DNA of 24,000 bases from Anthocerotibacter panamensis C109 (GTDB lineage: Bacteria > Cyanobacteriota > Cyanobacteriia > Gloeobacterales > Anthocerotibacteraceae): contig NZ_CP062698.1 in the NCBI RefSeq assembly GCF_018389385.1, positions 3,294,667 to 3,318,666 of the forward strand, in the 5' to 3' direction. Made by a program: the position numbers and the translations under genes. The notes beneath the pieces are model-generated. The model saw nothing but the letters and a program-made list of their open reading frames with translations. It ran no database searches and was not told the origin of the DNA. Shown here in pieces: positions 9,051-24,000 of this stretch; position 1 is the first letter of the stretch, and every line of letters starts with the position of its first letter.

Positions 9051-9209
9051 ACAGAAAAATCCTCGGAGTTCTTATCCTCAGCCAGGTGGATTTTTAAATG
9101 GTTGAAGAAACATTATCAGAAAGGCCCTTATGGGATTTACATTGGACCCGAAGCATTTAATCAATCACAAAAGGGAGATCTTCAACTTGGTCCAAAATTA
9201 TTAAGCTAA

Positions 9210-10241
9210 TGTAGCGCTCTGACGATTCGCACCGATGCCAGTACGCCTCCCAACATCTACAATCTGACGATTGGCGGGACTACGATTAATGGCCCGTCGG
9301 GGGTGCGCTCGATGTCCACCAGCCTGACGGTGACGCCCTCGACCACGCCACCAAATACCCCAACCATCACCAGTGTGAGCAGCTTTAATGCCCAAGTGGG
9401 ACAGACAGTGACCCTCACGGGCAACAATCTGGGCAATGCCACGCAAGTGTGGTTTGGAGGAGTTCCAGCAGCGTTCACCCTCAATGTCTCGACCAATACA
9501 GTAACGGCGGCAGTGCCCCCGAATGCCCCCACGGCTCCAATCAGTGTGGTCACCCCGAGTGGGACAACGCAGACAGCGCAGAATTTTGTGCCTGTGCAGG
9601 TGGCTGCGGCTACGGGGCAGGCACAGTTCAATTTGGGTATAGCGGCTCAACAGCAGGATGAGCAGTTTATCAACTTCTTAAGGCAACGCTCCGTTGAGTA
9701 TGATAATCGGGTAGCGGGGCCAGCAGATTTATTTGACATAAACTACTACCTCCTTTTGAATAGGTTAAGAACTGTTCGCTCTATGCTTACTGGTAACCTT
9801 AAGGGGAGCAATATTGCAGTTGCATCAGCAAGTTTTAACGATCGAGCGCCACGTTTCTACATTGCATTGAGTGGTCAAAAGGATCTATCTACAGACCAGC
9901 TTGGAAAATTAGATATTGGTCCTGAAGAGTATGCAGGACTTGCAAAAATTGCTATCCGATATTTTAATGGAGGAATGGTTCCCAGGATAAATAGTAAAAC
10001 AGGAGAATTTAGGTTAGGTGAAAATGGCTCCATATTAATTCGAGAATCACAGTATGACTCAGAGCAAAAAATCCTTGAACAAGTTAGGATAGAGCTTTTA
10101 GCTGATCCAGCCTTAACTGGAACGGTTCGTATCCTAAGTGAGTATAAGTATTGTCCTGGTTGTTTGCGGAGCATTTCTAAGTTTGAAAAGGATTTTCCGC
10201 TACGTGTTAATCTTAAAGTTTATGACGCGGTAGGAAGATAA
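9210..10241 (+). pseudogene. orphan Rhs C-terminal cassette 2, 5'-truncated inside the Ig-like linker; TIG domain plus deaminase-like toxin domain
   Basis: Homology to the main gene begins abruptly at about 9211 (SALTIRTDASTPPNIYNLTIGG, compare 5452 onward), directly after an in-frame TAA. TIG copy at 9360-9593. Diverges from the D1 segment after AQFNLGIAAQQ (about 9654). The tail contains FYIALSGQ...YDSEQKILEQV-(x)-YKYCPGCLRSISKF. Confidence 0.7.
9360..9593 (+). repeat. IPT/TIG-like domain, copy 2
   Basis: PTITSVSSFNAQVGQTVTLTGNNLGNATQVWFGGVPAAFTLNVSTNTVTAAVPPNAPTAPISVVTPSGTTQTAQNFVP. Near-identical DNA to 5599-5832. Confidence 0.6.
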
Positions 10242-10430
10242 CCCGTGTAGTTATGTTAGGTTTCGATCTCTCATTAGGATGCCAAGGTGTCTGCAAGGGA
10301 AGCATCCTGCTAGTTTGGATGACAGACCAGATTGCATATGAGTGCTCCTTAGCTTCTTTACAGATACTAAAATCTTAAGGTAAGATTTGAAAGTAAATTC
10401 GAGGTGTTTCTCTTGCAAAAGGAGCTAAAA

Positions 10431-10895
10431 ATGTCAAACAAAATCAGATATGATGGTGTTTACAGAACGAATTGGATATATGACAATGAGGAAGACGTGG
10501 ACGAAGGTTATGGAGAACTCAATATGAATGAACGAGAAAATATAGAATTTGGAAAAACTGGTTTGGATGAATTGGAAGGAGCATACTATTATTTAAGATT
10601 CTACCCTGGTTACAAAGTTTTATCGTTAAGCTCTATTGATTTTTCTGTTGACAAGATTGCTTTAATGCTTACGAAAGAAAATACAGAAATTTATCGAGGA
10701 GCTTTAGGGGAAACTTCTTACGAGGTCGAAGGAGATAACGTTAGATTTCATAGACAGGAGCTTTGGGAAAGCATGGGTTTAAAGGTAGACGTAGTCTATA
10801 CTGGAGTACTAAATAATGACGTGATTGATATGGAGATTTTGAATCGTATGAATAATGTTAGGAGTCAATTTAAATACTACTTTTTTAAAGTTTAG
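10431..10895 (+). CDS. putative immunity protein for cassette 2
   Basis: AT-rich ORF directly downstream of the toxin. ATG at 10431 is preceded by AAGGAG (10419-10424), so it is preferred over the GTG at 10404 in the ORF track. No recognisable family. Confidence 0.5.
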   Translation: MSNKIRYDGVYRTNWIYDNEEDVDEGYGELNMNERENIEFGKTGLDELEGAYYYLRFYPGYKVLSLSSIDFSVDKIALMLTKENTEIYRGALGETSYEVEGDNVRFHRQELWESMGLKVDVVYTGVLNNDVIDMEILNRMNNVRSQFKYYFFKV

Positions 10896-10958: not shown

Positions 10959-12191
10959 TTGCGTGGCGAAGCCATAGACCCTCTCGGCTTTGGGGGTGGC
11001 GACACCAACCTCTATCGCTATGTGGGTAATGCCCCCCATCTCGCGGTAGACCCCAGTGGACTCCAGCAAACAAAATCAAGTCCTACCCTCAACCCTAATC
11101 CCACCCCTAGCCGTGAAGTTATGCTCTCCGAAGTACCAGGGGCTACTACGGCTGGAGCCTGTGATTTTCTATTCAGTGCCGAGCCAGTACAGACAAATCT
11201 CACTACCTGTACCTGCGATTCATTTGATCGGTGCTTTGAGTGTCAGACAGAAGGCTTTTGCACTCAAGTTTGTGGACCAGGAACAATATTTAGCTGTGGG
11301 GGCGGGGTTCTTCCTCCAGGTGGCGGTGGGGGCGGCGGCGGAACGTTCCCGACTATCAGCAGTGTGAGCAGTTTCAGTGCCCAAGTGGGTCAGACGGTGA
11401 CACTCACGGGCAACAATTTGGGCAATGCCACGCAAGTACGGTTTGGGGGTATCCCCGCAGCGTTCACGGTCAATGCCGCGAATGGTCAAGTGACAGCAAC
11501 AGTGCCGCCGGGTGCATCAACGGGTCTTATCTGTGTGGTCACCCCGAGTGGGACAGCACAGACAGCGCAGAATTTTGTGCCTGTGCAGGTGGCTGCGGCC
11601 CTACGCCAAGCACAATCTGCTCTAGCGAATGTCGCTGACCAGCTCTTGCAGGGATTGACCAGCCGGGATTTCCTGGAGAGTGTGGCTAATGGGGCAGATA
11701 TTGCAGGGAATGCAGCAGGAGCCTTGGCACTTATCCTTGGCGCAGAAGGTACAGGTACAACACTCACGGGTGTTGGAGCGCTCATTGGGGTGCCAAGCTT
11801 GGCTGGAGCAGTGGGTGCAACTGGAGTATCTGTCATTGCCAAGGGGAGTGCAACTTTGATTAGGGGGTTATTGGAGCAGCAGTACTATGCGGCTAAGGCT
11901 AAGGTTGATATTTTGAAGCCTGGGGGAAATCCAATTGGTAGAGCAGGGAGTAGCCCTGAAATACGAGAACTAACGGGTGATCAGACGGATGCGTTAAACC
12001 TTTTTATGGAATTGATTGAAGGGGGTACTGAGGTTCCTACTCCAAATTTTAAGGGATTTCGTTTCAAAATTCCCGGTGACGGAACTGTACAGATCAGAGA
12101 TTTTGCATCCAAGAGTCCCAATACGAATGCTACAATAGACGTTAAGCTGAAAAGCGTTCCTGACATTGAAAAACTCAAGTTTAACCCCTAA
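10959..12191 (+). CDS. orphan Rhs C-terminal cassette 3 (no credible own start): core end, Cys-rich/poly-Gly linker, TIG, D2 hydrophobic segment, ~100-aa toxin
   Basis: In-frame homology starts upstream of the ORF-track TTG, at about 10926 (SPDLQRFISDSLRGEAIDPLGFGGGDTNLYRYVGNAPHLAVDPSGL). DPSGL at 11049-11063. Poly-Gly at 11319-11342. TIG at 11349-11582. LLEQQYYA at 11868-11891. Unique tail to 12188. Confidence 0.8.
   Translation: MRGEAIDPLGFGGGDTNLYRYVGNAPHLAVDPSGLQQTKSSPTLNPNPTPSREVMLSEVPGATTAGACDFLFSAEPVQTNLTTCTCDSFDRCFECQTEGFCTQVCGPGTIFSCGGGVLPPGGGGGGGGTFPTISSVSSFSAQVGQTVTLTGNNLGNATQVRFGGIPAAFTVNAANGQVTATVPPGASTGLICVVTPSGTAQTAQNFVPVQVAAALRQAQSALANVADQLLQGLTSRDFLESVANGADIAGNAAGALALILGAEGTGTTLTGVGALIGVPSLAGAVGATGVSVIAKGSATLIRGLLEQQYYAAKAKVDILKPGGNPIGRAGSSPEIRELTGDQTDALNLFMELIEGGTEVPTPNFKGFRFKIPGDGTVQIRDFASKSPNTNATIDVKLKSVPDIEKLKFNP
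11349..11582 (+). repeat. IPT/TIG-like domain, copy 3
   Basis: PTISSVSSFSAQVGQTVTLTGNNLGNATQVRFGGIPAAFTVNAANGQVTATVPPGASTGLICVVTPSGTAQTAQNFVP. Confidence 0.6.
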
Positions 12192-12206
12192 AAGGAGTTT
12201 GTAACT

Positions 12207-12557
12207 ATGTCCCTCCAATCGATACGAGATTCAATTTTGATTGAATGCAGCGAGGACTTCGTTGGTCTGTGGTCAATCGCATGGCGACTCCGCAATAGAC
12301 TCAAAGAAACAGATCTGTTTAGAATCCGCCAACAAACCATGCAAATTGTGCAAGATCTTCTATTTGCAGATCTCATTCAGGCTGGTACTATTTCGGATAG
12401 AGAACTTGAAGTATGGGAAATAACTCCTTCTGAAATTATCAGCCGAATAGAATCCGAATGGGATATTCTGGGGAGAGAGCCGGATATTGGTGAAATAGTT
12501 TGGTTCGTAGCTACAGAAAAGGGAGAGCAAGAAGCAGAGCTATTAAAGCAAGCGTAG
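12207..12557 (+). CDS. putative immunity protein for cassette 3
   Basis: ATG at 12207 with AAGGAG at 12193-12198, 15 nt after the toxin stop. 116 aa, AT-rich, acidic and helical-looking. Confidence 0.6.
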   Translation: MSLQSIRDSILIECSEDFVGLWSIAWRLRNRLKETDLFRIRQQTMQIVQDLLFADLIQAGTISDRELEVWEITPSEIISRIESEWDILGREPDIGEIVWFVATEKGEQEAELLKQA

Positions 12558-12643: not shown

Positions 12644-14272
12644 TTGCGTGGCGAAGCCATAGACCCCCTGGACTTTGGGGGTGGCGACACCAACCTCTAC
12701 CGCTATGTGGGTAATACCCCGCATCTCGCGGTGGACCCCAGTGGACTCCAGCAGAGAAAATTAAGTCCTACGCCTGCCCCCAGAAAACAAAGCAACATTA
12801 CCGCCCCTCCTGCTGCGACCAACGATAGTTGTGTGGCCTTTTTTGGCTCTGTTACTCCTTCCTCTGGCCTCAATGACCAACCAACTCTGGTAGACCCGCC
12901 TGCTACCAATATCACTATTAGCTGTACCTGTGACCCGCTTTGCTTTGACATCAGAATTGGTGTGGGCGGCCCTCCGCCCACGGGTTTACCCGGTCAGACC
13001 GTGGCTGCCGGGGGCTCGACTTCCTACGTGCCCTTCACCTACTTTTGCAATGCTTCCACCCCCTGCCTGCCCGAAGCCTATATTCAACTGTCCTTGAGTG
13101 GACAGCCCGCTGATTGGGTGCAAAGTGCTACCGCGATACCCGGAAGGACAACCTACAGTTTCAATCCACCCAATGTCTATCCTTCGCAGCAGCAAAGTAG
13201 CACACTGACGATCCGCACCGATGCCAGTACGCCTCCCAACATCTACAACCTGACGATTGGCGGGACTACGATTAATGGCCCGTCGGGGGTGCGCTCAATG
13301 CCCACCAGTCTGACGGTGACGCCTTCGACCACGCCCCCAAACACACCGAGCATCAGCACGGTGAGCAGCTTTAGTGCCCAAGTGGGTCAGACGGTGACGC
13401 TCACAGGCAACAATTTGGGCAGTGCCACGGAAGTATGGTTTGGCGGTGTCCCAGCCGCCTTCACCGCGAATGTCTCGACCAATCAAGTGACGGCGACCAT
13501 CCCGCCGAATGCCCCCACGGCTCCAATCAGTGTGGTCACGGCGAGTGGGACAACGCAGACAGCACAGAATTTTGTGCCTACGAATGTTCCTACTGCTCCG
13601 AGGCGAGCGCAGTTCAACTTGGGAGTTGCGGCAGGGCAATTACGCAATGCAATCGTTGACTTTCCTGGAGTTCGTGGGTTTGCTACATTCACCTCGGGAG
13701 CCTATGACTTTGCTTCATTTGGCCTTACCGCTGCATTACGTGGAGGGTTGAATAGCCTTACCCAGGTCAGTGACCCAATTAATACAAGCTCCGGTCTGTA
13801 TCGTGCAGGTCAAGTCGCTGGTCTAGCGGCATCGTTTGTATTAGGGACTGGTGAAGCAGGATTAATTGCTGAAGTTGAAGAAGGAGTATCGGGTATAGGT
13901 CGAGTAGCTGAAGTTGTAGGAGGGCGAACTCGACCTAGTTTTTATGTGACGCCGGGAGGTACCGTAGTACCCAGCGTTACTCCTGCTGGTATAGAAGTTT
14001 CAGCGGAGGCAGCTTTTCGTTTAGGAGAAGGAAGATTCAACGAAGCTTTGACTTTAGAGAATCTTGATGTCTTAATAGAAAGAGGAGAGAAGTTCATCGA
14101 AGATAATGGAAACTTAGTTCGTCGGCTACCTGCTTCAGGCGTAGGTGTACCTAGCAGGTCTGGGCGTTCTTTCATTGAAGCGATCCTTGATCCAATAGGG
14201 AGACGTATTATCACCATCATTCGCCGACAAAGACCGCTTCCCCCTGGGCGCTTTACACAGGTTAATCCATGA
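12644..14272 (+). CDS. orphan Rhs C-terminal cassette 4 (no credible own start): core end, Ig-like linker, TIG, ~215-aa unique C-terminal region
   Basis: Homology begins at 12634 with the same junction as cassette 3 (SDSLRGEAIDPLDFGGGDTNLYRYVGNTPHLAVDPSGL). DPSGL at 12734-12748. TIG at 13346-13579. Diverges after AQFNLGVAAGQ (about 13640) and has no EQQYYA motif. Confidence 0.8.
   Translation: MRGEAIDPLDFGGGDTNLYRYVGNTPHLAVDPSGLQQRKLSPTPAPRKQSNITAPPAATNDSCVAFFGSVTPSSGLNDQPTLVDPPATNITISCTCDPLCFDIRIGVGGPPPTGLPGQTVAAGGSTSYVPFTYFCNASTPCLPEAYIQLSLSGQPADWVQSATAIPGRTTYSFNPPNVYPSQQQSSTLTIRTDASTPPNIYNLTIGGTTINGPSGVRSMPTSLTVTPSTTPPNTPSISTVSSFSAQVGQTVTLTGNNLGSATEVWFGGVPAAFTANVSTNQVTATIPPNAPTAPISVVTASGTTQTAQNFVPTNVPTAPRRAQFNLGVAAGQLRNAIVDFPGVRGFATFTSGAYDFASFGLTAALRGGLNSLTQVSDPINTSSGLYRAGQVAGLAASFVLGTGEAGLIAEVEEGVSGIGRVAEVVGGRTRPSFYVTPGGTVVPSVTPAGIEVSAEAAFRLGEGRFNEALTLENLDVLIERGEKFIEDNGNLVRRLPASGVGVPSRSGRSFIEAILDPIGRRIITIIRRQRPLPPGRFTQVNP
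13346..13579 (+). repeat. IPT/TIG-like domain, copy 4
   Basis: PSISTVSSFSAQVGQTVTLTGNNLGSATEVWFGGVPAAFTANVSTNQVTATIPPNAPTAPISVVTASGTTQTAQNFVP. Confidence 0.6.
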
Positions 14273-14772
14273 ATTCAACAACGTTTTACCTTATGGTTGT
14301 GCTTTCGGAACAGAAAGTGCCTGAAGAGATGCTCCCCTCTTCAACGGTGAGGTTTGTGCAATATCCCTCTTATTCACTCTTATCTGCTGACGTTAGTTAT
14401 AAAAGTGAAACACCAATGGAAGATATGATTCCTTTTGGACATTTAGACGTAGGTCTTACTACCTGTTACCATTTTCAAAGTGCAGAATGTACTCTTAAAA
14501 TTGAGAATTGGAAACTCGATGATAACTGTCCATCCCATCAACGTTTAGCCAGCGCAGAACCATCATTAATTAAGCTCTCAGATATTCAGCTTGGCTTGCC
14601 TATTAAAGTTGAGTATATTCAGAATTTTAATGGCTCAATATGGGGAGTCACTATCAACAAGAATGCACAAGGTTTAATAAAAAGGATTGCCTCAAATATT
14701 TTAGTAGAGATTGATCGCGGTCAAGTTGTGGGTGTATGGTTTGAAAACGTGCTTATAAGCATAACTTGTTAG
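14269..14772 (+). CDS. putative immunity protein for cassette 4
   Basis: ATGA overlap with the toxin stop (14269-14272). 167 aa, AT-rich, no recognised family. Confidence 0.6.
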   Translation: MNSTTFYLMVVLSEQKVPEEMLPSSTVRFVQYPSYSLLSADVSYKSETPMEDMIPFGHLDVGLTTCYHFQSAECTLKIENWKLDDNCPSHQRLASAEPSLIKLSDIQLGLPIKVEYIQNFNGSIWGVTINKNAQGLIKRIASNILVEIDRGQVVGVWFENVLISITC

Positions 14773-14876: not shown

Positions 14877-16590
14877 AACAACAATTACTGGCTGCGGGGC
14901 CAGGCGCAAGGTCAGTTTATTCAACAATGGACGGTCAGTAATAGCAACTGGGCGGACCTTACCAGCGATGTGCCCCAACAATTGGCGAATGGTCGGGTAG
15001 ATGTTGTCTTCACCAATGACTATGCTGATTCAACGGCGGACCGTAATCTGCTTGTCGATACAGTAAATATCCATGGCAATGTTATTGCTGCACAAAGTAG
15101 TGCAGTCTATTACGATACGGGCGATCCTTTTGACGGAGTGTATGTGGGGTCAGGGGTCAACTTTGCCGGATGCCCTGTAGGGACAGGTGCATGTTTTCAA
15201 GGCGCTCTCCGATTCACTCCCGGCAGCACCAACAATCTGACCTTCACAGGGCGCGAAGACGATGGGACGGGACTCATCTACTACCGCGCCCGCTACTATT
15301 CTGCCGACCTGCAACGCTTTATCGCAGAAGACCCCCTCGGTTTTGGGGGTGGCGACACCAACCTCTATCGCTATGTGGGTAATGCCCCCCATCTCGCGGT
15401 AGACCCCAGTGGACTCCAGCAAACAAAATCAAGTCCTACCCTCAACCCTAATCCCGCCCCTAGCCGTGAATTTACCCTCGCCGAAGTACCAGGGGCTACT
15501 ACGGCTGGAGCCTGCGATTTTCTATTCAGTGCCGAGCCAGTACAGACAAATCTCACTACCTGTACCTGCGATTCATTTGGCAGGTGCTACGAGTGTCAGA
15601 TAGAAGGCTTTTGCACTCAGGTTTGTGGACCAGGAACAATATTTAGCTGTGGGGGCGGGGTTCTTCCTCCAGGTGGCGGTGGGGGCGGCGGCGGCGGTGG
15701 AACCCTCCCAAGTATCAGCGGGGTCAGCAGCTTCAGTGCGCAGGTAGGAACGGATATCACGATTTCGGGTAGTAACCTGAGCAATGCGACAGCAGTACGC
15801 TTCGGGAATGTCCCAGCTGCGTTCACCCTCAATGTCTCGACCAATGCAGTGACAGCGGCAGTGCCCCCGAATGCCCCCACGGCTCCTATCAGTGTGGTCA
15901 CCCCGAGTGGGACAACGCAGACAGCGCAGAACTTTGTGCCTGTGCAGGTGGCTACGGGCCCTACGCCAAGCACAATCTGCTCTAGCGAATGTCGCTGACC
16001 AGCTCTTGCAGGGATTGACCAGCCGAGATTTCCTGGAGAGTGTAGCTAATGGGGCAGATGCTACAGGGAATGCCCTTTACGGATTTTCTGTAATTGCTGG
16101 TGTTTTTGGAGCAGGTAGCTCATCTACAGGGGGCGGTGCCATCGTTGGCGTACCTGCTTTGGCGATAGCAGGTGGCGCTGTAGTGGCTGGGGCAGGGCTC
16201 AAGTCTAGTGCTGCGAATATCAGAGGGATCTTGGAGCAGCAGTACTATGCGGCTGGCGGCAAGGCAGCAAATGAAGTTGGAAGGCTTAGAGTAGAAAAAG
16301 TAGTAGAATTAACAGGTGGAACAGCTTCTGGAGAAAAAGTTTCAGTGAAAACACTTGGAAGCACAGACCTGGATGTGATTGGCCCTAGCGGAGAACTCAT
16401 TTCTGTTGGTGGTCCTGCTAAAGCAGGTAACCTGGGAAATTTTGTTAGAGAATTGAGGATTTACCAAGCTATTGCATCACAAAGAGGAGTTTACGTTAAA
16501 GCATACTTAGCAGAAGGGACGCCTCAATCAGCAATCGATAAGGCAATACGTGAATTGGGAGAAAAAAATGTATTTATCTTTACTCCATGA
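14877..16590 (+). pseudogene. orphan Rhs C-terminal cassette 5, 5'-truncated and frameshifted: CBM-like domain fragment, complete core end, Cys-rich/poly-Gly linker, TIG, D2 segment, toxin
   Basis: Open frame from 14877, after TAA TAG. RVDVVFTNDYADSTADRNLLVDTVNIHG is followed by NNLTFTGREDDGTGLIYYRARYYSADLQRFIAEDPLGFGGGD...DPSGL (15402-15416). Poly-Gly at 15672-15701. TIG at 15708-15941. An extra G in ACGGGCCC (15956-15958; the paralog at 20426-20431 has ACGGCCC) shifts the frame. The product continues in the ORF 15871-16590 frame (ALRQAQSALANVADQ...ILEQQYYA at 16228-16251). Confidence 0.75.
15708..15941 (+). repeat. IPT/TIG-like domain, copy 5 (most diverged)
   Basis: PSISGVSSFSAQVGTDITISGSNLSNATAVRFGNVPAAFTLNVSTNAVTAAVPPNAPTAPISVVTPSGTTQTAQNFVP. 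Confidence 0.6.
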
Positions 16591-16997
16591 GTACTCCCTG
16601 TGTCATAGATTTGTTTATCTATGCAGATCTAGAGGCTGCGTTTGATCTCTTAATTAGCAAAGTTCTAAGCGAGTGTGGATACAAGCTTCAAAATCCCTCA
16701 AATAACGAGATCACTACATTTAGCGAGGAAGGAGAAATCAAAGTAATCGATCCAACTACCATTCAGGCAGTTATTAGCTCTAATCAAAGCTTGGGTGTGC
16801 AGTTATGGAAAGATGAATCAAGGGATCTATATATTTCATGGAAACGCGGAGACACTTTTTGGAAATTCAGCCTATTTTTAGATGGGATGACTCTAGAAGA
16901 AGCGTCAGAAATCATTAATACAATATTTTCTGAATTGATTTGGAAACAGAAACTTGAAAATACTTTGTATACCGAGATGAAGATATTTATTGAGTAG
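16587..16997 (+). CDS. putative immunity protein for cassette 5
   Basis: ATGA overlap with the toxin stop (16587-16590). 136 aa, AT-rich. Confidence 0.6.
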   Translation: MSTPCVIDLFIYADLEAAFDLLISKVLSECGYKLQNPSNNEITTFSEEGEIKVIDPTTIQAVISSNQSLGVQLWKDESRDLYISWKRGDTFWKFSLFLDGMTLEEASEIINTIFSELIWKQKLENTLYTEMKIFIE

Positions 16998-17102: not shown

Positions 17103-17933
17103 TTGATTCGGTTACAGGACGCTTCCAGAACGTACAGTTTGATCAAAGTTACCCGAACCGAATTAAGAGGTAGTGAAGTGCTTCATGATTTTGACCTTGG
17201 CTTTTTGACACCTATTAATCTTGGAGCAAAGCAATTAGGCAAACAATTTTTGTCTTTACTCCAAGACCATATGTTTGATTTTTCACCTGAGCGAATTGGC
17301 AACTATGAGCCCATCAAACTCGCTTACAACTTTAATGAAATTGATGCCTGTCTTGATTTTTGGGAAAATCCTTTTTTATGGAAGCGTCGTAAACCGAGGG
17401 TATTAGGCAATGTATGGATGAGCTATCCAAATCAACACTCATCTGTCTATATTACCGCTAATTCTAAACAGCTAGATCCACAAAAGATAGTTGAGTTTTT
17501 TAAGGCGACTTCCCACCTACTCCAAGTGGATTTTGCTTACCTCCATTTTTTAGCTGAGCCAGAAAGCGAGTCATGGGATGTCCAACAAAAACTGATGCCT
17601 TTTCGGCAGGGAGTCACCACTCATGATCTTCGCAAGAATATACCTAATCTTTGTTGGGCAACGGTTTTTGGGAAACCTTATACTCGCCTCTTTTTGCTAG
17701 AACGCATTCTTTGTGCTCCTGCCCCCATTATTCAGGAAATAGATAAAGACACTATTTATATTCAGTTAAGCCAAGACATTTTTGATCTCAAAAGTCATTA
17801 CGAATCAATTAACTTAGTAAGAGAAAAGGTGAAAAGACATCTGAACTGCAATGCATTTCTAGATACATCTTTGCCCCCCCAACATCAGTATACAATCCCT
17901 AAGTTTACTTTTGATGAATCGGTTTATATTTAA
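17103..17933 (+). CDS. hypothetical protein; candidate stand-alone (orphan) immunity protein; start uncertain (TTG 17103 or GTG 17178)
   Basis: AT-rich ORF embedded in the cassette array with no intact toxin upstream. The layout (...NLCWATVFGKPYTRLFLLERIL...) loosely recalls large immunity families such as Imm52/DUF3396, from memory and unverified. Confidence 0.4.
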   Translation: MIRLQDASRTYSLIKVTRTELRGSEVLHDFDLGFLTPINLGAKQLGKQFLSLLQDHMFDFSPERIGNYEPIKLAYNFNEIDACLDFWENPFLWKRRKPRVLGNVWMSYPNQHSSVYITANSKQLDPQKIVEFFKATSHLLQVDFAYLHFLAEPESESWDVQQKLMPFRQGVTTHDLRKNIPNLCWATVFGKPYTRLFLLERILCAPAPIIQEIDKDTIYIQLSQDIFDLKSHYESINLVREKVKRHLNCNAFLDTSLPPQHQYTIPKFTFDESVYI

Positions 17934-18035
17934 GAACTAGCCATCTTTTTTATCAAGGGCCAATTCAAATTTGAAGTGCACCACTTAGGGATTTACCGAG
18001 AGGGGCTCACGGGGTAATCTGACGTTTACTATCAC

Positions 18036-18149
18036 CTCAATGTCTCGACCAATGCAGTGACGGCGACCATCCCCCCGAATGCCCCCACGGCTCCAATCAG
18101 TGTGGTCACCCCGAGTGGGACGGCACAGACAGCGCAGAATTTTATGCCT
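18036..18149 (+). repeat. IPT/TIG-like domain, copy 6 (C-terminal half only)
   Basis: LNVSTNAVTATIPPNAPTAPISVVTPSGTAQTAQNFMP. The N-terminal half of the domain is absent. Confidence 0.6.
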
Positions 18150-18797
18150 GTGCAGGTGGCTGCGGCTACGGGGCAAGCGCAGTTTGATTTGCGCATAGCG
18201 GCTCAACAGCTCCAGCAATTCTACGAAAATAACCAAGATGCAATCCAGGGCACGTTTAGCGCCTTGGGACAGATTTTGAACGGTGGACTCACCGGAATCC
18301 TAGGTCTGATTGAACTCAGTGGAGGTGCGGCACTACTGAACTACGCTAACTTTGAAGATGGCTCCCTTAGTGGTGCGGCAGCGGCAGCAGCAGCTACAGA
18401 CTTATTAGCGGTTGGCTCTGCTACAGTCGTTGCTGGCAGTGCCGTGGTGAATCAGGGTGTCAAGGGGTTGTTCGAGCAGCAGTTCTATGCGGCTTTGCAA
18501 GGAGGTGGGCAAAGTTCCATAAAGACTTTTGGACAGGATTTAAAAAATATTCGCGAGGTAGCAACTGGACGGCTCAAGGGTTTTTCTAGGGGAAACACAA
18601 CCCTTCCGAGAGGGGATCAAGGTGCTCGAGATCTATTTGAAAAGCTTACTGGAACCCCCCCTACAGGAGATTTTGACCGTGCTATTCTACAAGATGGGCG
18701 AGAGATTGTATTCAGAGCAATCAGTAGATCTGGACCAGCTAAAATTGAAGTGGTTGATCCCCTGCAAAGTTTTTTGGAAAAAATTTCTTTTCCTTAG
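18036..18797 (+). pseudogene. orphan Rhs C-terminal cassette 6, 5'-truncated inside the TIG domain; D1 segment plus ~95-aa toxin
   Basis: Homology starts at LNVSTNAVTATIPPNAPTAPISVV (18036), 6 codons after an in-frame TAA. D1 copy at 18177-18491 with LFEQQFYA at 18468-18491. Diverges from the main gene after QGGGQ (18513). Confidence 0.7.
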
Positions 18798-18808
18798 GAG
18801 GGAATTCT

Positions 18809-19180
18809 GTGTGTAACATTTTACTGCAAGATGTGCGTAACCTCTTAGATCTATGGTCTTTGGGGTCACTTGATGCACGCAAGGTTCATGAGGAAGCTGA
18901 GAAATTATGGGAAAGTATTCAACCTGATTCTTTTTATCCTAAAGACAACTATAAATCAATTATCATTGAGGTCTTGTCTCAGCTAGAGATTCTGAACCAC
19001 CAACTTATCATGCCCGATGATATTCCAGCTATTCTCCGATTTCTCGACACCCCCAATGGAAAGGAGTTGCAGGGATGGGAGGACTGGCTCAACTATTGGG
19101 AGAATATTGATATGGACGTTCGTAGAGAAAACTTAAGGTCGAATCCTTACTACTGCTCTGTACTTGAAAACTTAAGGTAA
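18809..19180 (+). CDS. putative immunity protein for cassette 6
   Basis: GTG at 18809 preceded by AGGAGG (18796-18801), 11 nt after the toxin stop. 123 aa, AT-rich and helical-looking. Confidence 0.55.
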   Translation: MCNILLQDVRNLLDLWSLGSLDARKVHEEAEKLWESIQPDSFYPKDNYKSIIIEVLSQLEILNHQLIMPDDIPAILRFLDTPNGKELQGWEDWLNYWENIDMDVRRENLRSNPYYCSVLENLR

Positions 19181-19248: not shown

Positions 19249-19440
19249 TTAGGGAATCAAGGAAGGAACGGCCAAACCCTTATGCACGGTTGCTTGTAGC
19301 GCTTGACTGAAAAACGTCACCACCGACCGCCCCTGCCTGTAGCACGTCTGCACTACCCCGAGCAAAGCTGCGGTTTCTTTAAATCGCTCCATCGAGCGCG
19401 ACCCCCCACTGACCTTACGCTTGGTCACCGCTAAACGCAA
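19249..19440 (-). pseudogene. C-terminal fragment of an IS66-family-like transposase (IS remnant)
   Basis: LRLAVTKRKVSGGSRSMERFKETAALLGVVQTCYRQGRSVVTFF matches the conserved R-x-x-V-x-x-RK-x-SGG-x-RS...A-x-L-x-S/V-x-x-T-C tail remembered from IS66-type (ISBst12-like) transposases. The N-terminal ~90% is missing. The fragment ends at about 19446, exactly where Rhs homology of cassette 7 begins. Confidence 0.45.
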
Positions 19441-21094
19441 CGACCACTACTACAGCCCAGAACTCCAGCGCTTTATCGCAGAAGACCCCTTGGGTTTTGG
19501 TGGGGGCGACACCAATCTCTACCGCTATGTGGGTAATACCCCGCATCTCGCGGTAGACCCCAGTGGACTCCAGCAAACAAAATTAAGTCCTAAGCCTACC
19601 CCCAGAAAACAAAGCAATGTCACCACCCAAAGCAGCATTACCGCCCCTGGTCCGACGACCAACAATTCTTGTGGTGTGGTTGTGTTCGGACCCGTTACCG
19701 CCTCCGCCGCACAGGGTAACCAAGCCATTGGGACAGACCCCCCACCTTCGCCTAACGACACTATTTGCGGATTTAGTATAACCATTGGGGTTGGCGGCGG
19801 CGGCGGTTTCGTCGTCGCACTACCTGGTCAGACCGTCGCTGCTGGGGGTTCAGTTTCCTACGTTCCCTTCACCTACTTTTGCAATGCTTCCACCCCCTGC
19901 CTGCCCGAGGCTTATATTCAACTGTCTCTGAGTGGACAGCCCGCCGATTGGGTGCAAAGTGCCACCGCGATACCCGGAAGGACAACCTACAGTTTCAATC
20001 CACCCAATGTCTATCCTTCGCAGCAGCAGAGTAGCACCCTGACGATACGCACCGATGCCAGTACGCCGCCGAATACCTACAATCTGACCATCGGTGGGAC
20101 TACCATCAATGGACCGTCGGGGGTGCGCCCGATGCCCACCAGTCTGACGGTGACGCCCCCGACCACGCCCCCCAATACCCCAACCATCACCAGTGTGAGC
20201 AGTTTCAGTGCCCAAGTGGGTCAGACGGTGACCCTCACGGGCAACAATCTAGGCAATGCCACCCAAGTATGGTTTGGAGGAGTTCCAGCAGCATTCACCC
20301 TCAATGTCTCGACCAATCAAGTGACAGCAACAGTGCCCCCGAATGCCCCCACGGCTCCAATCAGTGTGGTCACGGCGAGTGGGACAACGCAGACAGCGCA
20401 GAATTTTGTGCCTGTGCAGGTGGCTACGGCCCTACGCCAAGCACAATCTGCTCTAGCGAATGTCGCTGACCAGCTCTTGCAGGGATTGACCAGCCGAGAT
20501 TTCCTGGAGAGTGTAGCTAATGGGGCAGATGCTACAGGGAATGCAGCAGGAGCCTTGGCACTTATTCTTGGCGCAGAAGGTACAGGTACAACACTCACGG
20601 GTGTTGGAGCGCTCATTGGGGTACCAAGCTTGGCTGGAGCAGTGGGTGCAGCCGGAGTATCTGTCATTGCTAAGGGGAGCGCAACTTTGATTCGAGGGTT
20701 GCTGGAGCAGCAGTTCTATGCGATAGAAGGCCCCTTGGAAAATGCTAACTTTGCGCAGAAGAGCATTAATAAGGGAGAATTATTTAGTGAGGAAGGACAA
20801 GCTATCTATAGCAAGTTAGCAGGCAGACCAATTAAAACAGTTAACGATCTTGTCGAGGCAATTAAAGGTGGGGGCATTAATCCTGCCGATATTAAAATTG
20901 ACTATATCATTCGCGAAGGAAATACCCTTTTATTGAACACTCGCTCTGTAGCAGCCCTTGAGCGTGCAGGGGTTCCCCGTAGCGCCTTCTCTGCTATAAA
21001 TAGAACTGGAGATCCTTTCTTTGAAAAGCTGCTTGATGCTCAATTGCGCCGCAATGGGCTGACAAGCCAAGGTACTCCAAAGCTGCTCAGGTAA
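19421..21094 (+). CDS. orphan Rhs C-terminal cassette 7 (5' end cut by the IS remnant): core end, Ig-like linker, TIG, D2 segment, ParB-like-looking toxin
   Basis: Rhs homology from YYSPELQRFIAEDPLGFGGGD (19447). DPSGL at 19556-19570. 19469-19992 is near-identical to 4888-5411. TIG at 20180-20413. LLEQQFYA at 20699-20722. The unique tail reads IEGPLENANFAQKSINKGELFSEEG...IKIDYIIREGNTLLLNTRSVAALERAGVPR... Confidence 0.8.
   Translation: MVTAKRNDHYYSPELQRFIAEDPLGFGGGDTNLYRYVGNTPHLAVDPSGLQQTKLSPKPTPRKQSNVTTQSSITAPGPTTNNSCGVVVFGPVTASAAQGNQAIGTDPPPSPNDTICGFSITIGVGGGGGFVVALPGQTVAAGGSVSYVPFTYFCNASTPCLPEAYIQLSLSGQPADWVQSATAIPGRTTYSFNPPNVYPSQQQSSTLTIRTDASTPPNTYNLTIGGTTINGPSGVRPMPTSLTVTPPTTPPNTPTITSVSSFSAQVGQTVTLTGNNLGNATQVWFGGVPAAFTLNVSTNQVTATVPPNAPTAPISVVTASGTTQTAQNFVPVQVATALRQAQSALANVADQLLQGLTSRDFLESVANGADATGNAAGALALILGAEGTGTTLTGVGALIGVPSLAGAVGAAGVSVIAKGSATLIRGLLEQQFYAIEGPLENANFAQKSINKGELFSEEGQAIYSKLAGRPIKTVNDLVEAIKGGGINPADIKIDYIIREGNTLLLNTRSVAALERAGVPRSAFSAINRTGDPFFEKLLDAQLRRNGLTSQGTPKLLR
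20180..20413 (+). repeat. IPT/TIG-like domain, copy 7
   Basis: PTITSVSSFSAQVGQTVTLTGNNLGNATQVWFGGVPAAFTLNVSTNQVTATVPPNAPTAPISVVTASGTTQTAQNFVP. Confidence 0.6.
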
Positions 21095-21100
21095 GCGCCC

Positions 21101-21481
21101 ATGGAAACACAGATAGTCTACACAATTCCCAATACAGCTCTCGATTGCTTAAATGCTCAATTTATATATGAGGAAACAGACTTGATCCTCAAGTTGGAGT
21201 ACGAAGATGAAGATGGTATGGTGCGGTCCTATCACATTCGGTTTATTCATGCGCAATTGTTTCGATTTGAAAATGAAATGCACTGTATTTCCATCACAGC
21301 AGGAGCCTATGATGGGGTAGTTGAATTAGTTGATTCGGCTTGGGCTATGGAGATCAATTCCTTTGAAAATGAATATAACCGTCACAGTCCCTGGAGTAAA
21401 AGACATTTTTGCATATATATCAGTAGCACAGGACAGCTAAATATCATTGCAGACAGTTTCACTGTTGAGGTTGTAAAATGA
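21101..21481 (+). CDS. putative immunity protein for cassette 7
   Basis: Starts 6 nt after the toxin stop. 126 aa, AT-rich. The pattern ...HIRFIHAQLFRFENE...VVELVDSAWAMEI...RHFCIYISSTGQLNIIADSFTV resembles common small Rhs/CDI immunity proteins. Confidence 0.6.
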   Translation: METQIVYTIPNTALDCLNAQFIYEETDLILKLEYEDEDGMVRSYHIRFIHAQLFRFENEMHCISITAGAYDGVVELVDSAWAMEINSFENEYNRHSPWSKRHFCIYISSTGQLNIIADSFTVEVVK

Positions 21482-22041
21482 CAGCAGAAGAAATAATTCA
21501 GTTAAGCAAGACTATCTCTCATGCTTTACGTCACGAACCTTGGCTCTACGAGTTAGAAATTGACAACGAAGGATGGGTACTAGTCGAGACGTTACTCAGT
21601 TCTTTGCGTGCAGAGAGAACTGAATGGTCATCTCTGGGTGTAGCTGACTTAGAAAAGTTATTAACATTCTTTGACAAAAAACGGTTTGAGCTAAAGAATG
21701 AGAAAATTCGTGCTCTTTATGGTCATTCTATCCCCAAGAAACTACTGAAGCAGCCTGCCCTACCACCAATAACTTTGTATCATGGAACAGCGGTCGAGTC
21801 AGCGGCATCAATAAAAATTTATGGTTTACGGCCCATGGGCCGTCAGTACGTACATATGTCAGTGGAGGTAGAAACAGCGAGAGAAGTTGGTAGGCGAAAA
21901 TCCAAGTCGTCAATTGTTCTAACGATCTTGGCACAAAATGCATACAACAATGGTTTATCATTCTATCCGGCTGGGGAATTCGTCTGGCTAGCTGACTACG
22001 TGCTATCAAACTACATTCAGTTTACTGGGCACCTTGATTAA
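21478..22041 (+). CDS. kptA: RNA 2'-phosphotransferase (KptA/Tpt1 family); extreme C-terminus replaced by a MITE end
   Basis: LSKTISHALRHEPWLYELEIDNEGWVLVETLL, IRALYGHSIP, LYHGTAVESAASIKIYGLRPMGRQYVHMS and VWLADYV match the Tpt1/KptA layout (SKxLSxxLRH, GW, xGHS, YHGT, GLxxMxRxHVHLS). ATGA overlap with the preceding immunity gene. The last codons GHLD-stop are encoded by the MITE terminus (22027 onward). Confidence 0.8.
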   Translation: MTAEEIIQLSKTISHALRHEPWLYELEIDNEGWVLVETLLSSLRAERTEWSSLGVADLEKLLTFFDKKRFELKNEKIRALYGHSIPKKLLKQPALPPITLYHGTAVESAASIKIYGLRPMGRQYVHMSVEVETAREVGRRKSKSSIVLTILAQNAYNNGLSFYPAGEFVWLADYVLSNYIQFTGHLD

Positions 22042-22125
22042 TCCAAGCTTGTTGATAATCAGCTATGACAAAGCAGGGGTTTCAGGCTTTGCTTATTACG
22101 AAAAAGGTAATTAATCGAGGTGCCC
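22027..22125. mobile_element. 99-bp MITE/IS-derived element carrying the termini of the IS5-family element
   Basis: Ends are GGGCACCTTGATTAAT (22027-22042) and the reverse complement of 22109-22125, GGGCACCTCGATTAATT. Both match the 8574-8590 end of the IS at 7143-8590. No transposase and no flanking direct duplication (left flank ...TTTACT, right flank CGAGAA...). Confidence 0.65.
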
Positions 22126-22127
22126 CG

Positions 22128-22588
22128 AGAAGGATGGCTCCTGGTTCGCAGTTGGGCAGCTCGCTCCTAGATCAAAAAAGGCGACGGGGTACAGCCTGGA
22201 GGTCGAGGATGACCATACATATTTTGTTGGAGATTCTGGCGCGTGGGTGCATAATGAGTGTCTTGCTGCAAAGGGGGCAAGTGAGCTTTCCTTCGGTCGT
22301 AAGTTGGACTTCCTTTTCAACAAGGGAATTGACCAATCCAACGCCTACAACGCTGCGCGCGCCGCAGGTAATGCTGAACGAATCGGTATTGCCGATACAG
22401 CAGCGAATCGCGCCGAAGTTGCGAGGCTATTCAATCAGGCCTATCGAGATCCTTCTTCTATTGTTGAGCCGGGGAAGGTTCTCGGCAGCAACCTCCGAGA
22501 GTTCTTCCTTCCCGGCGTTACCGGGACTGGCTCAAAGATCCAGTTCGTTGAGAGGGGTGGACAGGTGATCACCATCATTGCCAAGTAA
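22128..22588 (+). pseudogene. orphan cassette of a second toxin type: C-terminal fragment of a Hint domain plus ~105-aa toxin domain
   Basis: Immediately after the MITE, KDGSWFAVGQLAPRSKKATGYSLEVEDDHTYFVGDSGAWVHNECLAAKG is paralogous to 23529-23674. The unique tail reads ASELSFGRKLDFLFNKGIDQSNAYNAARAAGNAERIGIADTAANRAEV...GSKIQFVERGGQVITIIAK. Confidence 0.7.
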
Positions 22589-22598
22589 GAAGATTGAT

Positions 22599-23081
22599 AT
22601 GGAATTTATCTCAGTGTCCTGGACATCTGTCGAGTCAAAGAATGCCTTGAGCAACTTTTTAGCCAAAGAAGGTGCCACGAGCGAACTGGCGACAGCAGAT
22701 CCAAATACATGGGGCTTCTTCCCGCTGCCGAATGGTAAGAAGCTTGTGGTTGGCTATGCGAATTTGGGCTTGACGCCAGTGGCTACCGTGGTGAACGGCC
22801 ACTTGCTCATCGGTATCAATGAAATCCTTGCTGGCTTTGATCTGAACACCCTACAGAGAACGTTCATATATCGCATGCCATCCGTCTTTCACGAATTCGT
22901 ATCGCTCAAGGATCCGGTCATCGTTCGCGACGAAGTGGGGTTCATTTGCATTTCAGCTACAGGAGTGGAGAGATGGGCGCTCTTGACGAACGGGCCAATC
23001 AATCAGTTCACAATCGAAGGTGCGTTCATCCGTGGAGTGACCATTGACGATGAGCCGTTCAAGTTCGCCATTCCTTCATAA
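22599..23081 (+). CDS. putative immunity protein for the Hint-type orphan toxin
   Basis: ATG at 22599, 10 nt after the toxin stop, is preferred over the TTG at 22578. 160 aa. Unlike the Rhs-array immunity genes, it is not AT-rich. Confidence 0.5.
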   Translation: MEFISVSWTSVESKNALSNFLAKEGATSELATADPNTWGFFPLPNGKKLVVGYANLGLTPVATVVNGHLLIGINEILAGFDLNTLQRTFIYRMPSVFHEFVSLKDPVIVRDEVGFICISATGVERWALLTNGPINQFTIEGAFIRGVTIDDEPFKFAIPS

Positions 23082-24000
23082 TTCTTTGCTGCAAAGGGGG
23101 TAGCAGCCGATGCCCAGTTCGCGCAGAAGACCTAAGCTGCGGAGTACGGTTAGTCTCACGCTTGGGACGGGGCGGGCGCTCTGTCCGTCGCTTTGAGGCG
23201 AGTGTTCAGGAGGTGCGCACAGTCGCCAATGGTCTGGGTTGCTCGTTCGTGGCAGGTACTCCAGTTCTGGCTGAGGGTGGACAGCAGCCCATCGAGAAGC
23301 TCAAGCCGGATGATAAAGTCCTGGCAAGAGATGAAGTGACAGGTGCACAGAACTATCAACGGGTCCTCCAAACCTTTGCCACGCCCAATGACCCGCTCTA
23401 TGACCTGGAACTAGTCAGCGCAACCGGGAAGCGAGAAGTACTCGGAGTAACGGGCAATCATCCCTTCTGGGTCAAGGACAAGGGCTGGACAGAGACCGAC
23501 CTACTCAAGCCGGGGATGCAAGTCGCGGGCAAAGATGGCTCCTGGCTGATGGTTGGGAAGTTCGTGCCTAGAGCGGAACGGGCGACGGGGTACAACCTGG
23601 AGGTTGAGGATGATCACACGTACTTTGTGGGGGATTCCGGGGCGTGGGTACATAATGAATGTCTTGCCGCAAAGACAGCAGAGACGGTTGCGGCTGATGC
23701 AGCGGCGGCAGGAGGTAGAGGGCCAAGCTTTATTGCGGCTGCGGACGGTAGCGTCTTTCCAGTTCCGAGAGGAGCAACAGGGCCACTCCCGACACGAGCT
23801 CCTGGAATGCAGTTTACCGGCGGCTCTGGCGGATACGGCCTTGACCCGCGAGTAACTGGTGTTCGTTTCATGGACGCCAACGCAAACCAAGGAGCGCGAG
23901 CGGTTTACATGAATCAAGCCGGGCAGACGGTGAATCCGTTCACCGGTCGTACTGTGCCATACAGCGATCCAACCGCGCACTTCTACTTCAACCCGAACCC
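23054..24000 (+). CDS. Hint-domain polymorphic toxin fragment (no start identified; open at the 3' window edge), missed by the ORF track
   Basis: Frame is open from 23054 to 24000. Complete mini-Hint at 23240-23656, then LAAKTAETVAADAAAAGGRGPSFIAAADGSVFPVPRG...GGYGLDPRVTGVRFMDANANQGARAVYMNQAGQTVNPFTGRTVPYSDPTAHFYFNPN, continuing beyond the window. Confidence 0.75.
23083..23133 (+). other. relic of a third Hint/toxin junction (FAAKGVAADAQFAQKT-stop)
   Basis: TTTGCTGCAAAGGGGG at 23085-23100 repeats CTTGCTGCAAAGGGGG at 22262-22277. The encoded AAKGVAADA resembles AAKTAETVAADA at 23666 onward. It is followed by a stop after 17 codons. Confidence 0.4.
23240..23656 (+). other. mini-Hint (bacterial intein-like / pre-toxin HINT) domain, 139 aa
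   Basis: N-terminal CSFVAGTPVLAEGGQQPIEKLKPDDKVLARDE and C-terminal GYNLEVEDDHTYFVGDSGAWVHN are the canonical Hint block A and block F/G signatures (Cys1 ... HTYFV ... VHN). Confidence 0.8.

What the first reader, a model, noticed from the sequence alone, without database searches (positions are those of the whole stretch)
21101..22041. KptA/Tpt1 RNA 2'-phosphotransferase translationally coupled to a toxin-immunity gene: candidate repair-type second immunity factor
The kptA-like ORF overlaps the stop of the cassette-7 immunity gene by ATGA (21478-21481). This is the same coupling used between toxins and immunity genes throughout this array. It is the last gene of the cassette before the MITE seam.

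Tpt1/KptA enzymes use NAD+ to remove RNA 2'-phosphates through an ADP-ribosylated intermediate, and they have an ADP-ribosyltransferase fold. That is established knowledge. An enzyme of this kind in an immunity position suggests one of three things:
- enzymatic reversal of an RNA or nucleotide modification made by the adjacent toxin;
- an auxiliary toxin/effector gene;
- a hitch-hiking housekeeping gene.

I cannot distinguish these from sequence alone. I am not aware of the first option being described for Rhs cassettes.
Basis: inference. Interest (0 to 1): 0.7.

Follow-up and report, generated by a model that had tools for sequence, protein, structure and literature searches.

The report
RNA-repair enzyme packaged with Rhs toxin
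A gene for the RNA-repair enzyme KptA sits directly after the immunity gene of one toxin cassette in a bacterial contact-toxin (Rhs) array, and the same toxin–immunity–KptA trio turns up again and again in other bacteria. This suggests the cell keeps a second, enzymatic safeguard that repairs RNA damage made by this toxin family.

Summary
An intact KptA/Tpt1 RNA 2'-phosphotransferase gene (21478-22041; Pfam PF01885, E=1.8e-34) starts inside the stop codon of the immunity gene (21101-21481) through ATGA at 21478-21481. It is the last gene before a 99-nt repeated element with terminal inverted repeats (MITE-like, 22027-22125). The toxin, immunity and kptA genes form one low-GC block (GC3 about 0.38-0.39, against 0.555 GC for the genome). 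This KptA is the genome's only copy and is missing from the three same-family genomes searched. The toxin domain (20723-21094) belongs to a widespread family. In 8 of 9 informative contexts from other bacteria, it is followed by a homologous immunity gene and then kptA. The one exception lacks both. A second family of toxin domains, homologous to the first (profile-profile probability 96%), also carries kptA in this same slot. The KptAs found next to toxins form their own clade (support 100/100), apart from the KptAs of related genomes. Both toxin families model as ParB/sulfiredoxin-like fold (phosphotransferase fold) domains. My best reading is that KptA is a conserved enzymatic back-up to the immunity protein: it removes RNA 2'-phosphate lesions that the toxin leaves. 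The link between the genes is shown; how KptA works is inferred.

The parts
19421..21094 (+). Orphan Rhs C-terminal module: RHS-core end (DPxGL motif 'DPLGFGGGDTNLYRYVGNTPHLAVDPSGL'), shared TIG-containing linker, then a variable toxin domain
   Evidence: shared-region repeats D1-D12
20671..20725 (+). Conserved junction motif (…GLLEQQFYA) repeated at each cassette, marking where the variable toxin domain begins
   Evidence: repeat families D10/D11
20723..21094 (+). Toxin domain, family A: no Pfam/NCBIfam hit, predicted ParB/sulfiredoxin-like (ParB-CTPase) fold, invariant N-T-R motif
21101..21481 (+). Immunity gene (126 aa), homologous to the small gene after this toxin family in other genomes (23-27% identity, E 1e-9 to 1e-11)
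21478..21481 (+). ATGA overlap: immunity TGA stop and kptA ATG start
21478..22041 (+). kptA: RNA 2'-phosphotransferase (Tpt1/KptA, PF01885), catalytic motifs retained; member of a toxin-linked KptA clade
20723..22120 (.). Low-GC block (GC about 0.36-0.45, GC3 about 0.38-0.39) spanning toxin, immunity and kptA; flanked by higher-GC shared Rhs linker and PT-HINT regions
22027..22125 (.). MITE-like 99-nt element with 16-nt terminal inverted repeats; encodes the last codons and stop of kptA; other copies in the genome
22113..23081 (+). Next module (context): truncated PT-HINT orphan toxin (22113-22588) plus its putative immunity (22599-23081), starting a HINT-type polymorphic-toxin array

Best explanation
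kptA is a dedicated third gene of a polymorphic (Rhs) toxin-immunity module whose toxin domain has a ParB/sulfiredoxin-like fold. The cassette (toxin C-terminal domain, immunity protein, KptA) moves as a unit between Rhs orphan arrays. The immunity protein presumably blocks the toxin by binding it, as usual. KptA most likely gives a second, enzymatic layer of self-protection in the producing and sibling cells. It would use NAD+ to remove 2'-phosphate groups from RNA that the toxin's phosphotransferase-type activity creates. Such lesions would arise if the toxin phosphorylates ribose 2'-OH of tRNA or rRNA, or leaves 2'-phosphorylated RNA ends. KptA would then restore translation even when some toxin escapes the immunity protein. 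Shown here: the genetic linkage, co-transfer and the intact KptA catalytic motifs. Inferred: the fold of the toxin and the specific chemistry linking toxin and KptA.
For: (1) Co-occurrence: in 8 of 9 informative contexts of the toxin-A family, the A-type immunity gene is followed at once by kptA, often with overlapping or abutting genes. These are L017/L018, L020, L021, L022, F5FZXeVN, L032, L033 and the window. The single exception, L034, lacks both the A-type immunity and kptA. (2) A second toxin family (B/C: L023/L024, Ralstonia L026-L029, probably Pseudomonas L025) also carries immunity followed by kptA. Its toxin domain is homologous to toxin A by profile-profile comparison (prob 96.4%, E 1.3e-9). 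(3) The toxin-linked KptAs form a clade with 100/100 support, separate from the KptAs of the genome's class relatives. They share an N-terminal 'ALRHEPW(L)YELE' signature. (4) In this genome kptA is the only PF01885 gene. It is absent from the 3 same-family genomes and 9 of 10 same-order genomes searched. It shares the low-GC signature of the toxin and immunity. (5) The genome has no RtcB, LigT 2H phosphoesterase or 2'-5' RNA ligase, so this KptA has no obvious housekeeping tRNA-repair partner. (6) Toxin A models at pLDDT 90.7 and matches the ParB/Noc/KorB/sulfiredoxin/serine-kinase superfamily: VIA Z 5-6.5, Foldseek probability 0.6-0.77. The B/C toxin matches ParB at Z 8.4. That superfamily carries out nucleotide-dependent phosphoryl transfer, including transfer onto hydroxyls (serine kinase SerK/SbnI) (established knowledge; ToxB preprint). 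KptA is the enzyme class that removes internal RNA 2'-phosphates (established knowledge; PMC9503650).
Against: No biochemical or genetic data link KptA to the toxin's lesion. The fold call for toxin A is middling (Z 6.5, under the Z 7-8 seen for unrelated best hits). The closest characterized ParB-fold toxin, ToxB, acts as an ATPase that compacts the nucleoid, not as an RNA kinase, and needs no KptA (bioRxiv 10.64898/2026.05.05.722872). KptA does not co-vary strictly with the toxin family: this genome's KptA groups with KptAs of B/C-family cassettes, not with those of A-family cassettes. So kptA units have been exchanged between cassettes, which is also what a mobile module with no function would do. 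Only about 15 contexts were examined, not all 883 toxin-A representatives.
Confidence: 0.45

Rival explanations
1. KptA repairs RNA cut by the toxin rather than chemically modified by it. In this reading the ParB-like toxin is a nuclease that leaves 2',3'-cyclic-phosphate or 2'-phosphate ends, and KptA removes terminal 2'-phosphates (some Tpt1 enzymes are reported to do this, from memory) so other enzymes can heal and rejoin the RNA.
For: Aravind and colleagues predicted that ParB-superfamily toxin domains might be nucleases (PMC3482391). KptA works with RNA repair after metal-independent RNase cleavage in phages (PMC9503650). The co-occurrence data fit this model just as well.
Against: The genome lacks RtcB, LigT/2H phosphoesterase and 2'-5' RNA ligase, so KptA alone could not complete a repair of cut RNA. 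The ParB-fold toxin ToxB is not a nuclease.
Confidence: 0.15
2. KptA is a mobile passenger with no functional tie to the toxin. It sits in an immunity-adjacent slot because recombination at the conserved Rhs junctions moves 'payload' blocks, and it contributes a general RNA 2'-phosphate clean-up function to the cell.
For: This KptA clusters with KptAs of other toxin families rather than those of its own toxin family, pointing to independent exchange. The Pseudomonas locus L025 carries two immunity-like + kptA units, as if the pair moves on its own. A MITE-like element sits at kptA's 3' end.
Against: kptA is confined to a clade found next to two homologous ParB-like toxin families and is missing when the A-type immunity is missing (L034). 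A neutral passenger should be spread across many unrelated toxin types.
Confidence: 0.15
3. The toxin is an ATPase-type ParB-fold toxin like ToxB, which depletes or misuses nucleotides. KptA helps indirectly, by consuming NAD+ or handling NAD-derived stress, and not by repairing RNA.
For: Structural kinship to ParB/ToxB (ToxB preprint).
Against: There is no known role of KptA in nucleotide-pool or NAD homeostasis. Its known substrates are RNA 2'-phosphates.
Confidence: 0.05
4. KptA is an auxiliary effector, for example a Tpt1-like ADP-ribosyltransferase acting on RNA 5'-phosphate ends, as proposed for 'KptA/Tpt1-like toxins' (PMC11833690).
For: Tpt1 enzymes can ADP-ribosylate 5'-phosphorylated RNA/DNA ends in vitro (PMC11833690).
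Against: kptA is a separate gene with no Rhs fusion or delivery signal. Its protein would act in the producer cell, where a toxic activity makes no sense, and it sits in the immunity slot.
Confidence: 0.05

Closest known systems
DarT/DarG (ADP-ribosylating DNA toxin with a macrodomain antitoxin that removes the mark)
   Same: An enzyme undoes a nucleic-acid modification made by a linked toxin, working as an immunity.
   Different: DarTG is a type-II toxin-antitoxin pair, not an Rhs/polymorphic toxin. Its toxin is an ADP-ribosyltransferase acting on DNA, and its antitoxin is a macrodomain. Here the predicted toxin is a ParB-like fold, the repair enzyme is KptA/Tpt1, and a separate binding immunity protein is also present.
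RhsP2 (Pseudomonas aeruginosa Rhs ART toxin that ADP-ribosylates RNA 2'-OH) with bacterial PARG as an enzymatic immunity (PMC11833690)
   Same: An Rhs C-terminal toxin targets RNA ribose 2' positions, and a separate enzyme can reverse the lesion and protect cells, alongside the binding immunity RhsI2.
   Different: In RhsP2 the reversing enzymes (PARGs) are not encoded in the cassette and the toxin is an ART. Here KptA is encoded in the cassette itself, right after the immunity gene, and the toxin is a predicted ParB-like fold.
ToxB, a ParB-CTPase-fold toxin domain of CdiA (bioRxiv 10.64898/2026.05.05.722872)
   Same: A ParB-CTPase-fold domain used as an antibacterial polymorphic-toxin warhead, with a small immunity gene downstream; conserved N-x-R-type residues (ToxB N106/H107/R108) resemble the N-T-R / N-R-R motif here.
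   Different: ToxB is delivered by CDI and hydrolyzes ATP; no KptA was reported. Homology between ToxB and these Rhs toxin domains was not tested.
[quoted passage not shown] 2012, PMC3482391)
   Same: C-terminal ParB-superfamily domains in RHS proteins with downstream immunity genes.
   Different: That paper predicted nucleases with a DGHHR motif; these domains have a different motif (N-T-R / D-N-R-R), and no KptA association was described.
Phage and archaeal/eukaryotic tRNA repair or splicing modules using KptA/Tpt1 (PMC9503650)
   Same: KptA removes RNA 2'-phosphates in a pathway that restores RNA after attack.
   Different: Those systems pair KptA with RNA ligase and 2H phosphoesterase. None of these is present in this genome, and there is no toxin-immunity context.

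Membership tests
Tpt1/KptA RNA 2'-phosphotransferase (PF01885) | PTS_2-RNA domain over the whole protein | tested here: met
   E 1.8e-34, profile 3-176/177; only copy in genome
Tpt1/KptA RNA 2'-phosphotransferase (PF01885) | Conserved catalytic motifs (R-H of 'LRH', R of 'KKR', 'GHS', 'HGT', 'GRQ') | tested here: met
   Alignment to C. thermocellum Tpt1 6E3A, E 1.7e-52, motifs kept
Tpt1/KptA RNA 2'-phosphotransferase (PF01885) | NAD+-dependent removal of RNA 2'-phosphate | not testable with these tools
   Requires enzyme assay
NCBIfam PRK00819 RNA 2'-phosphotransferase equivalog | Score above curated equivalog cut-off | tested here: not met
   159.5 bits vs cut-off 231: divergent member of the broader family, consistent with a separate toxin-linked clade
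Rhs polymorphic toxin orphan cassette | RHS-core end motif (DPxGL) followed by a variable C-terminal toxin domain | tested here: met
   'DPLGFGGGDTNLYRYVGNTPHLAVDPSGL' at the start of 19421-21094; shared junction repeat before the toxin
Rhs polymorphic toxin orphan cassette | Cognate small immunity gene directly downstream of the toxin | tested here: met
   21101-21481, homologous to the genes after this toxin family elsewhere
ParB/sulfiredoxin (ParB-CTPase) superfamily, applied to the toxin domain | ParB/Srx fold | tested here: inconclusive
   Toxin A VIA Z 5-6.5, Foldseek prob 0.6-0.77 at E 0.2. B/C homologue ParB Z 8.4. Middling scores, but consistent over the whole superfamily.
ParB/sulfiredoxin (ParB-CTPase) superfamily, applied to the toxin domain | Box II-like arginine motif for nucleotide binding | tested here: inconclusive
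   Invariant N-T-R (toxin A) aligned with D-N-R-R (toxin B/C) by hhalign; the match to ParB Box II is not confirmed at residue level
ToxB (CdiA ParB-fold toxin) | Sequence homology to ToxB and CDI delivery | not tested
   No ToxB sequence available; the carrier here is Rhs, not CdiA
Macrodomain/PARG-type enzymatic immunity (DarG, PARG vs RhsP2) | Reversing enzyme of macrodomain fold | tested here: not met
   The reversing candidate here is KptA (ART-superfamily Tpt1), not a macrodomain
MITE-like element | Short non-coding repeated element with terminal inverted repeats, several copies in the genome | tested here: met
   99 nt, 16-nt TIRs, copies at 2532854, 417385, 3320649; TIR fragments at the IS5-like transposase ends

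The most novel reading that the evidence does not exclude
The ParB/sulfiredoxin-fold Rhs toxin is an NTP-dependent RNA 2'-OH kinase that phosphorylates tRNA or rRNA ribose. KptA is its cognate enzymatic antidote, using NAD+ to remove the 2'-phosphate. This would be a toxin-repair pair built from a kinase and a 2'-phosphotransferase, and would give KptA, whose physiological role in bacteria is still unclear, a defined substrate source.
Probability: 0.2. Interest if true: 0.85.

Novelty: new variant of a known kind. Interest (0 to 1): 0.6.

Why it matters
Bacterial KptA is a long-standing puzzle. It is patchy in distribution, not essential, and most bacteria lack a ligase pathway that makes its known substrate, the internal RNA 2'-phosphate. 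A conserved toxin–immunity–KptA trio points to a source of that substrate: attack by a polymorphic toxin. It also makes the question testable with simple co-expression and RNA-chemistry assays. It would add an enzymatic 'repair-type' immunity to Rhs systems, alongside binding immunity proteins, in parallel with the PARG protection against RhsP2 and with DarT/DarG. It would also attach a function to a ParB-fold toxin family that is still poorly understood.

Tried and rejected
Pfam and NCBIfam found no family for the toxin domain or the immunity protein. The search of solved structures with the toxin-A profile found only chance matches. Foldseek on toxin A gave no match at E <= 0.001; ParB/Srx came only from VIA Z-scores and weak Foldseek probabilities. 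The search for related loci with KptA on genome contigs found nothing, because its peptide patterns were too specific. The toxin domain was searched in 401 phylum genomes and found only in G000, so context had to come from metagenome/Logan contigs via the look-up of encoding contigs. The class relatives' KptA loci were searched at ±1.5 kb and carry no toxin-A, B/C or immunity homologs nearby; these KptAs appear to be of the non-toxin type. Considered and rejected: that KptA is a housekeeping gene trapped in the array. It is the only copy and foreign in composition, the genome has no RtcB/LigT partners, and relatives lack it. Also rejected: that the ATGA overlap alone indicates a special coupling, since such overlaps are common. 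Also rejected: that the MITE-like element is Rhs-specific; its other copies are not near Rhs genes. Only ESM embedding leads (score 0.76-0.80) tie toxin B/C to ParB. No complex prediction was run: immunity–toxin binding is the textbook expectation and would not change the conclusion.

Full report
Setting. The window (G000:C1:3294667-3318666) lies in a single-contig 4.19-Mb genome of 55.5% GC. It holds an Rhs array. First comes a large Rhs protein (208-6537: DUF6531, FG-GAP, RHS repeats, TIG) with its immunity gene (6534-7160). Then come an IS5-like transposase (7272-8575, two ORFs) and a series of orphan Rhs C-terminal modules. Each orphan begins with the same RHS-end/TIG linker (repeat families D1-D12) and ends in a different toxin domain plus immunity gene: a deaminase toxin at 9303-10241 (PF14424), then cassettes at 10959-12557, 12644-14772, 14970-16997 and 17103-19180. 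The cassette in question is 19421-22041. Its orphan protein (P0001) begins with the RHS-end motif 'DPLGFGGGDTNLYRYVGNTPHLAVDPSGL'. The conserved junction motif 'GLLEQQFYA' (20671-20725) marks the start of the variable toxin domain at 20723. The toxin ends at 21094, the immunity gene is 21101-21481, and kptA is 21478-22041.

Observation check. The ATGA overlap at 21478-21481 is real. kptA is an intact Tpt1/KptA: PF01885 at E 1.8e-34, and an alignment with solved C. thermocellum Tpt1 (6E3A, E 1.7e-52) keeps the catalytic motifs. It is divergent, scoring below the NCBIfam equivalog cut-off. Just after it lies a 99-nt element with 16-nt terminal inverted repeats (22027-22125). It recurs at three other places in the genome, and its end sequences flank the IS5-like transposase in the window. 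Its left repeat supplies the last five codons and the stop of kptA. Beyond it, a different, PT-HINT-type orphan array begins: a HINT fragment plus toxin at 22113-22588, an immunity at 22599-23081, and a full PT-HINT protein from about 23087. The ATGA coupling is not a rule of this array: the toxin-to-immunity junction of this very cassette has a 6-nt gap. Such overlaps are common in bacteria (established knowledge).

Is kptA part of the cassette? Composition says yes. Toxin, immunity and kptA form one low-GC block (GC3 0.379, 0.378, 0.394). The shared Rhs linker and the downstream HINT genes have GC3 0.56-0.60, and the genome is 0.555 GC. kptA is the genome's only PF01885 gene. It is missing from the 3 same-family genomes and from 9 of 10 same-order genomes searched.

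Co-occurrence in other bacteria. The toxin domain is a widespread family: 883 representatives at E <= 1e-3. I fetched contexts for 10 of them. In every informative case but one, the toxin is followed by a small immunity gene homologous to this one (23-49% identity among them) and then kptA, with overlapping or abutting genes. The cases are L017/L018 (216-aa orphan), L020 (2245-aa Rhs), L021, L022, F5FZXeVN (2786-aa Rhs), L032 and L033. The exception, L034, has a different downstream gene and no kptA. One contig (L019) ends after the toxin. So 8 of 9 informative contexts carry the trio. The converse test points the same way. The closest generic KptA homologs of this protein (55-61% identity) also sit right after small immunity-like genes behind toxins: metagenome contigs L023/L024, Pseudomonas sp. 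L025 (two immunity+kptA units), and Ralstonia nicotianae L026-L029 beside a 4316-aa Rhs. Those toxins form a second family, B/C (38% identity between the B and C toxins). It is homologous to toxin A by profile-profile comparison (hhalign prob 96.4%, E 1.3e-9). The alignment pairs the invariant N-T-R of A with D-N-R-R of B/C. A tree puts all toxin-linked KptAs in one clade with 100/100 support, far from the KptAs of the genome's class relatives. Those relatives' KptAs have no toxin or immunity homologs within 1.5 kb. Within the toxin-linked clade, this KptA nests with the B/C-context KptAs (97/100), not with those of toxin-A cassettes. So kptA units have been exchanged among cassettes of the two related toxin families.

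What the toxin is. The toxin-A domain models well (pLDDT 90.7). Its structural matches are all members of the ParB/Noc/KorB/sulfiredoxin/free-serine-kinase superfamily: VIA Z 5-6.5, sulfiredoxin with ATP:Mg among them, and Foldseek probabilities 0.6-0.77 at E about 0.2. ESM Atlas neighbours are other Rhs/PT-HINT toxin domains. The B/C domain model (pLDDT 61) matches ParB at Z 8.4 over 94 residues, and its embedding neighbours include ParB families. Zhang et al. described ParB-superfamily toxin domains in polymorphic toxins (PMC3482391). A 2026 preprint shows a ParB-CTPase-fold CDI toxin (ToxB) that binds and hydrolyzes ATP, with key residues N106/H107/R108. I therefore call these toxins ParB/Srx-like, with moderate confidence. 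That superfamily carries out nucleotide-dependent phosphoryl transfer, including onto hydroxyl groups (SerK, SbnI, sulfiredoxin; established knowledge, echoed in the ToxB preprint).

Mechanism (inferred). KptA/Tpt1 uses NAD+ to remove RNA 2'-phosphates (established knowledge; PMC9503650). This genome lacks the usual partners that would make such substrates in housekeeping repair: no RtcB, LigT 2H phosphoesterase or 2'-5' ligase. The simplest unifying model is that the ParB/Srx-fold toxin leaves 2'-phosphate lesions on RNA, by kinase-type phosphoryl transfer to ribose 2'-OH or at RNA ends, and KptA erases them. This would give a repair-type second immunity behind the binding immunity protein. 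The model parallels PARG protection against the RNA-2'-OH-ADP-ribosylating Rhs toxin RhsP2 (PMC11833690) and DarT/DarG, but uses a different toxin fold and a different reversing enzyme. The rivals are: repair of toxin-cut RNA (weakened by the missing ligase partners), a passenger module with no function (weakened by the restriction to one toxin superfamily and the clade structure), NAD/ATP-level effects, and an auxiliary-toxin role (no delivery feature). The literature searched has no description of KptA in Rhs/polymorphic-toxin cassettes. A paper on reversing RNA ADP-ribosylation speculates about 'KptA/Tpt1-like toxins' (PMC11833690).

Limits. There are no experiments. The fold assignment rests on Z-scores of 6.5 and 8.4 and a profile match. 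The census covered about 15 contexts, not hundreds. The genome's taxonomy is hidden, though its KptA homologs and toxin contexts are in Pseudomonadota. The genome has no Hcp/T6SS, so how these Rhs proteins are delivered is unresolved.

Noticed in passing
window 7143-8590 (transposase ORFs 7272-7901 and 7946-8575, minus strand): An IS5-like insertion sequence (DDE_Tnp_1 + DUF772, split into two ORFs) inside the Rhs array. Its ends match the terminal inverted repeats of the MITE-like element at 22027-22125, so the MITE is probably a non-autonomous derivative of this IS family.
   Followed up: partly
window 22027-22125; genome copies at 2532854-2532952, 417385-417483, 3320649-3320727: MITE-like 99-nt element with 16-nt terminal inverted repeats. 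It supplies the last 5 codons and the stop of kptA. The copies at 2532854 and 417385 are not near Rhs genes; the one at 3320649 lies in another Rhs region just past the window.
   Followed up: yes
window 14970-16590: Orphan Rhs cassette D seems frameshifted: the shared-linker ORF (14970-15998, frame 0) and the toxin-bearing ORF (15871-16590, another frame) overlap. It may be a pseudogene or a sequencing error.
   Followed up: partly
window 17103-18797: Orphan cassette E is split into two same-frame ORFs (17103-17933 and 18057-18797), suggesting an internal stop in the shared linker.
   Followed up: no
window 9303-10241 and 10404-10895: One orphan cassette carries a BURPS668_1122-family deaminase toxin (PF14424) with its immunity gene.
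   Followed up: no
window 22113-23985: Past the MITE a second, PT-HINT-type polymorphic toxin array begins: a truncated HINT plus toxin (22113-22588), an immunity (22599-23081), and a full PT-HINT protein from about 23087 running off the window. kptA lies at the junction of the two array types.
   Followed up: partly
G000 genome: No T6SS Hcp, RtcB (only fragments), LigT 2H phosphoesterase or 2'-5' RNA ligase were found. How the Rhs proteins are delivered is unclear.
   Followed up: partly
L025 (Pseudomonas sp. CR3202 contig, 2913-3949 and 4552-5561): Two identical immunity-like (151 aa) + kptA units in tandem, suggesting the immunity-kptA pair can duplicate or move as a block.
   Followed up: partly
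L034 (Logan contig, Rhs 1875-10478): An Rhs protein with a toxin-A domain that has neither the A-type immunity nor kptA downstream (145-aa and 611-aa genes instead). This is the only exception to the trio seen.
   Followed up: partly
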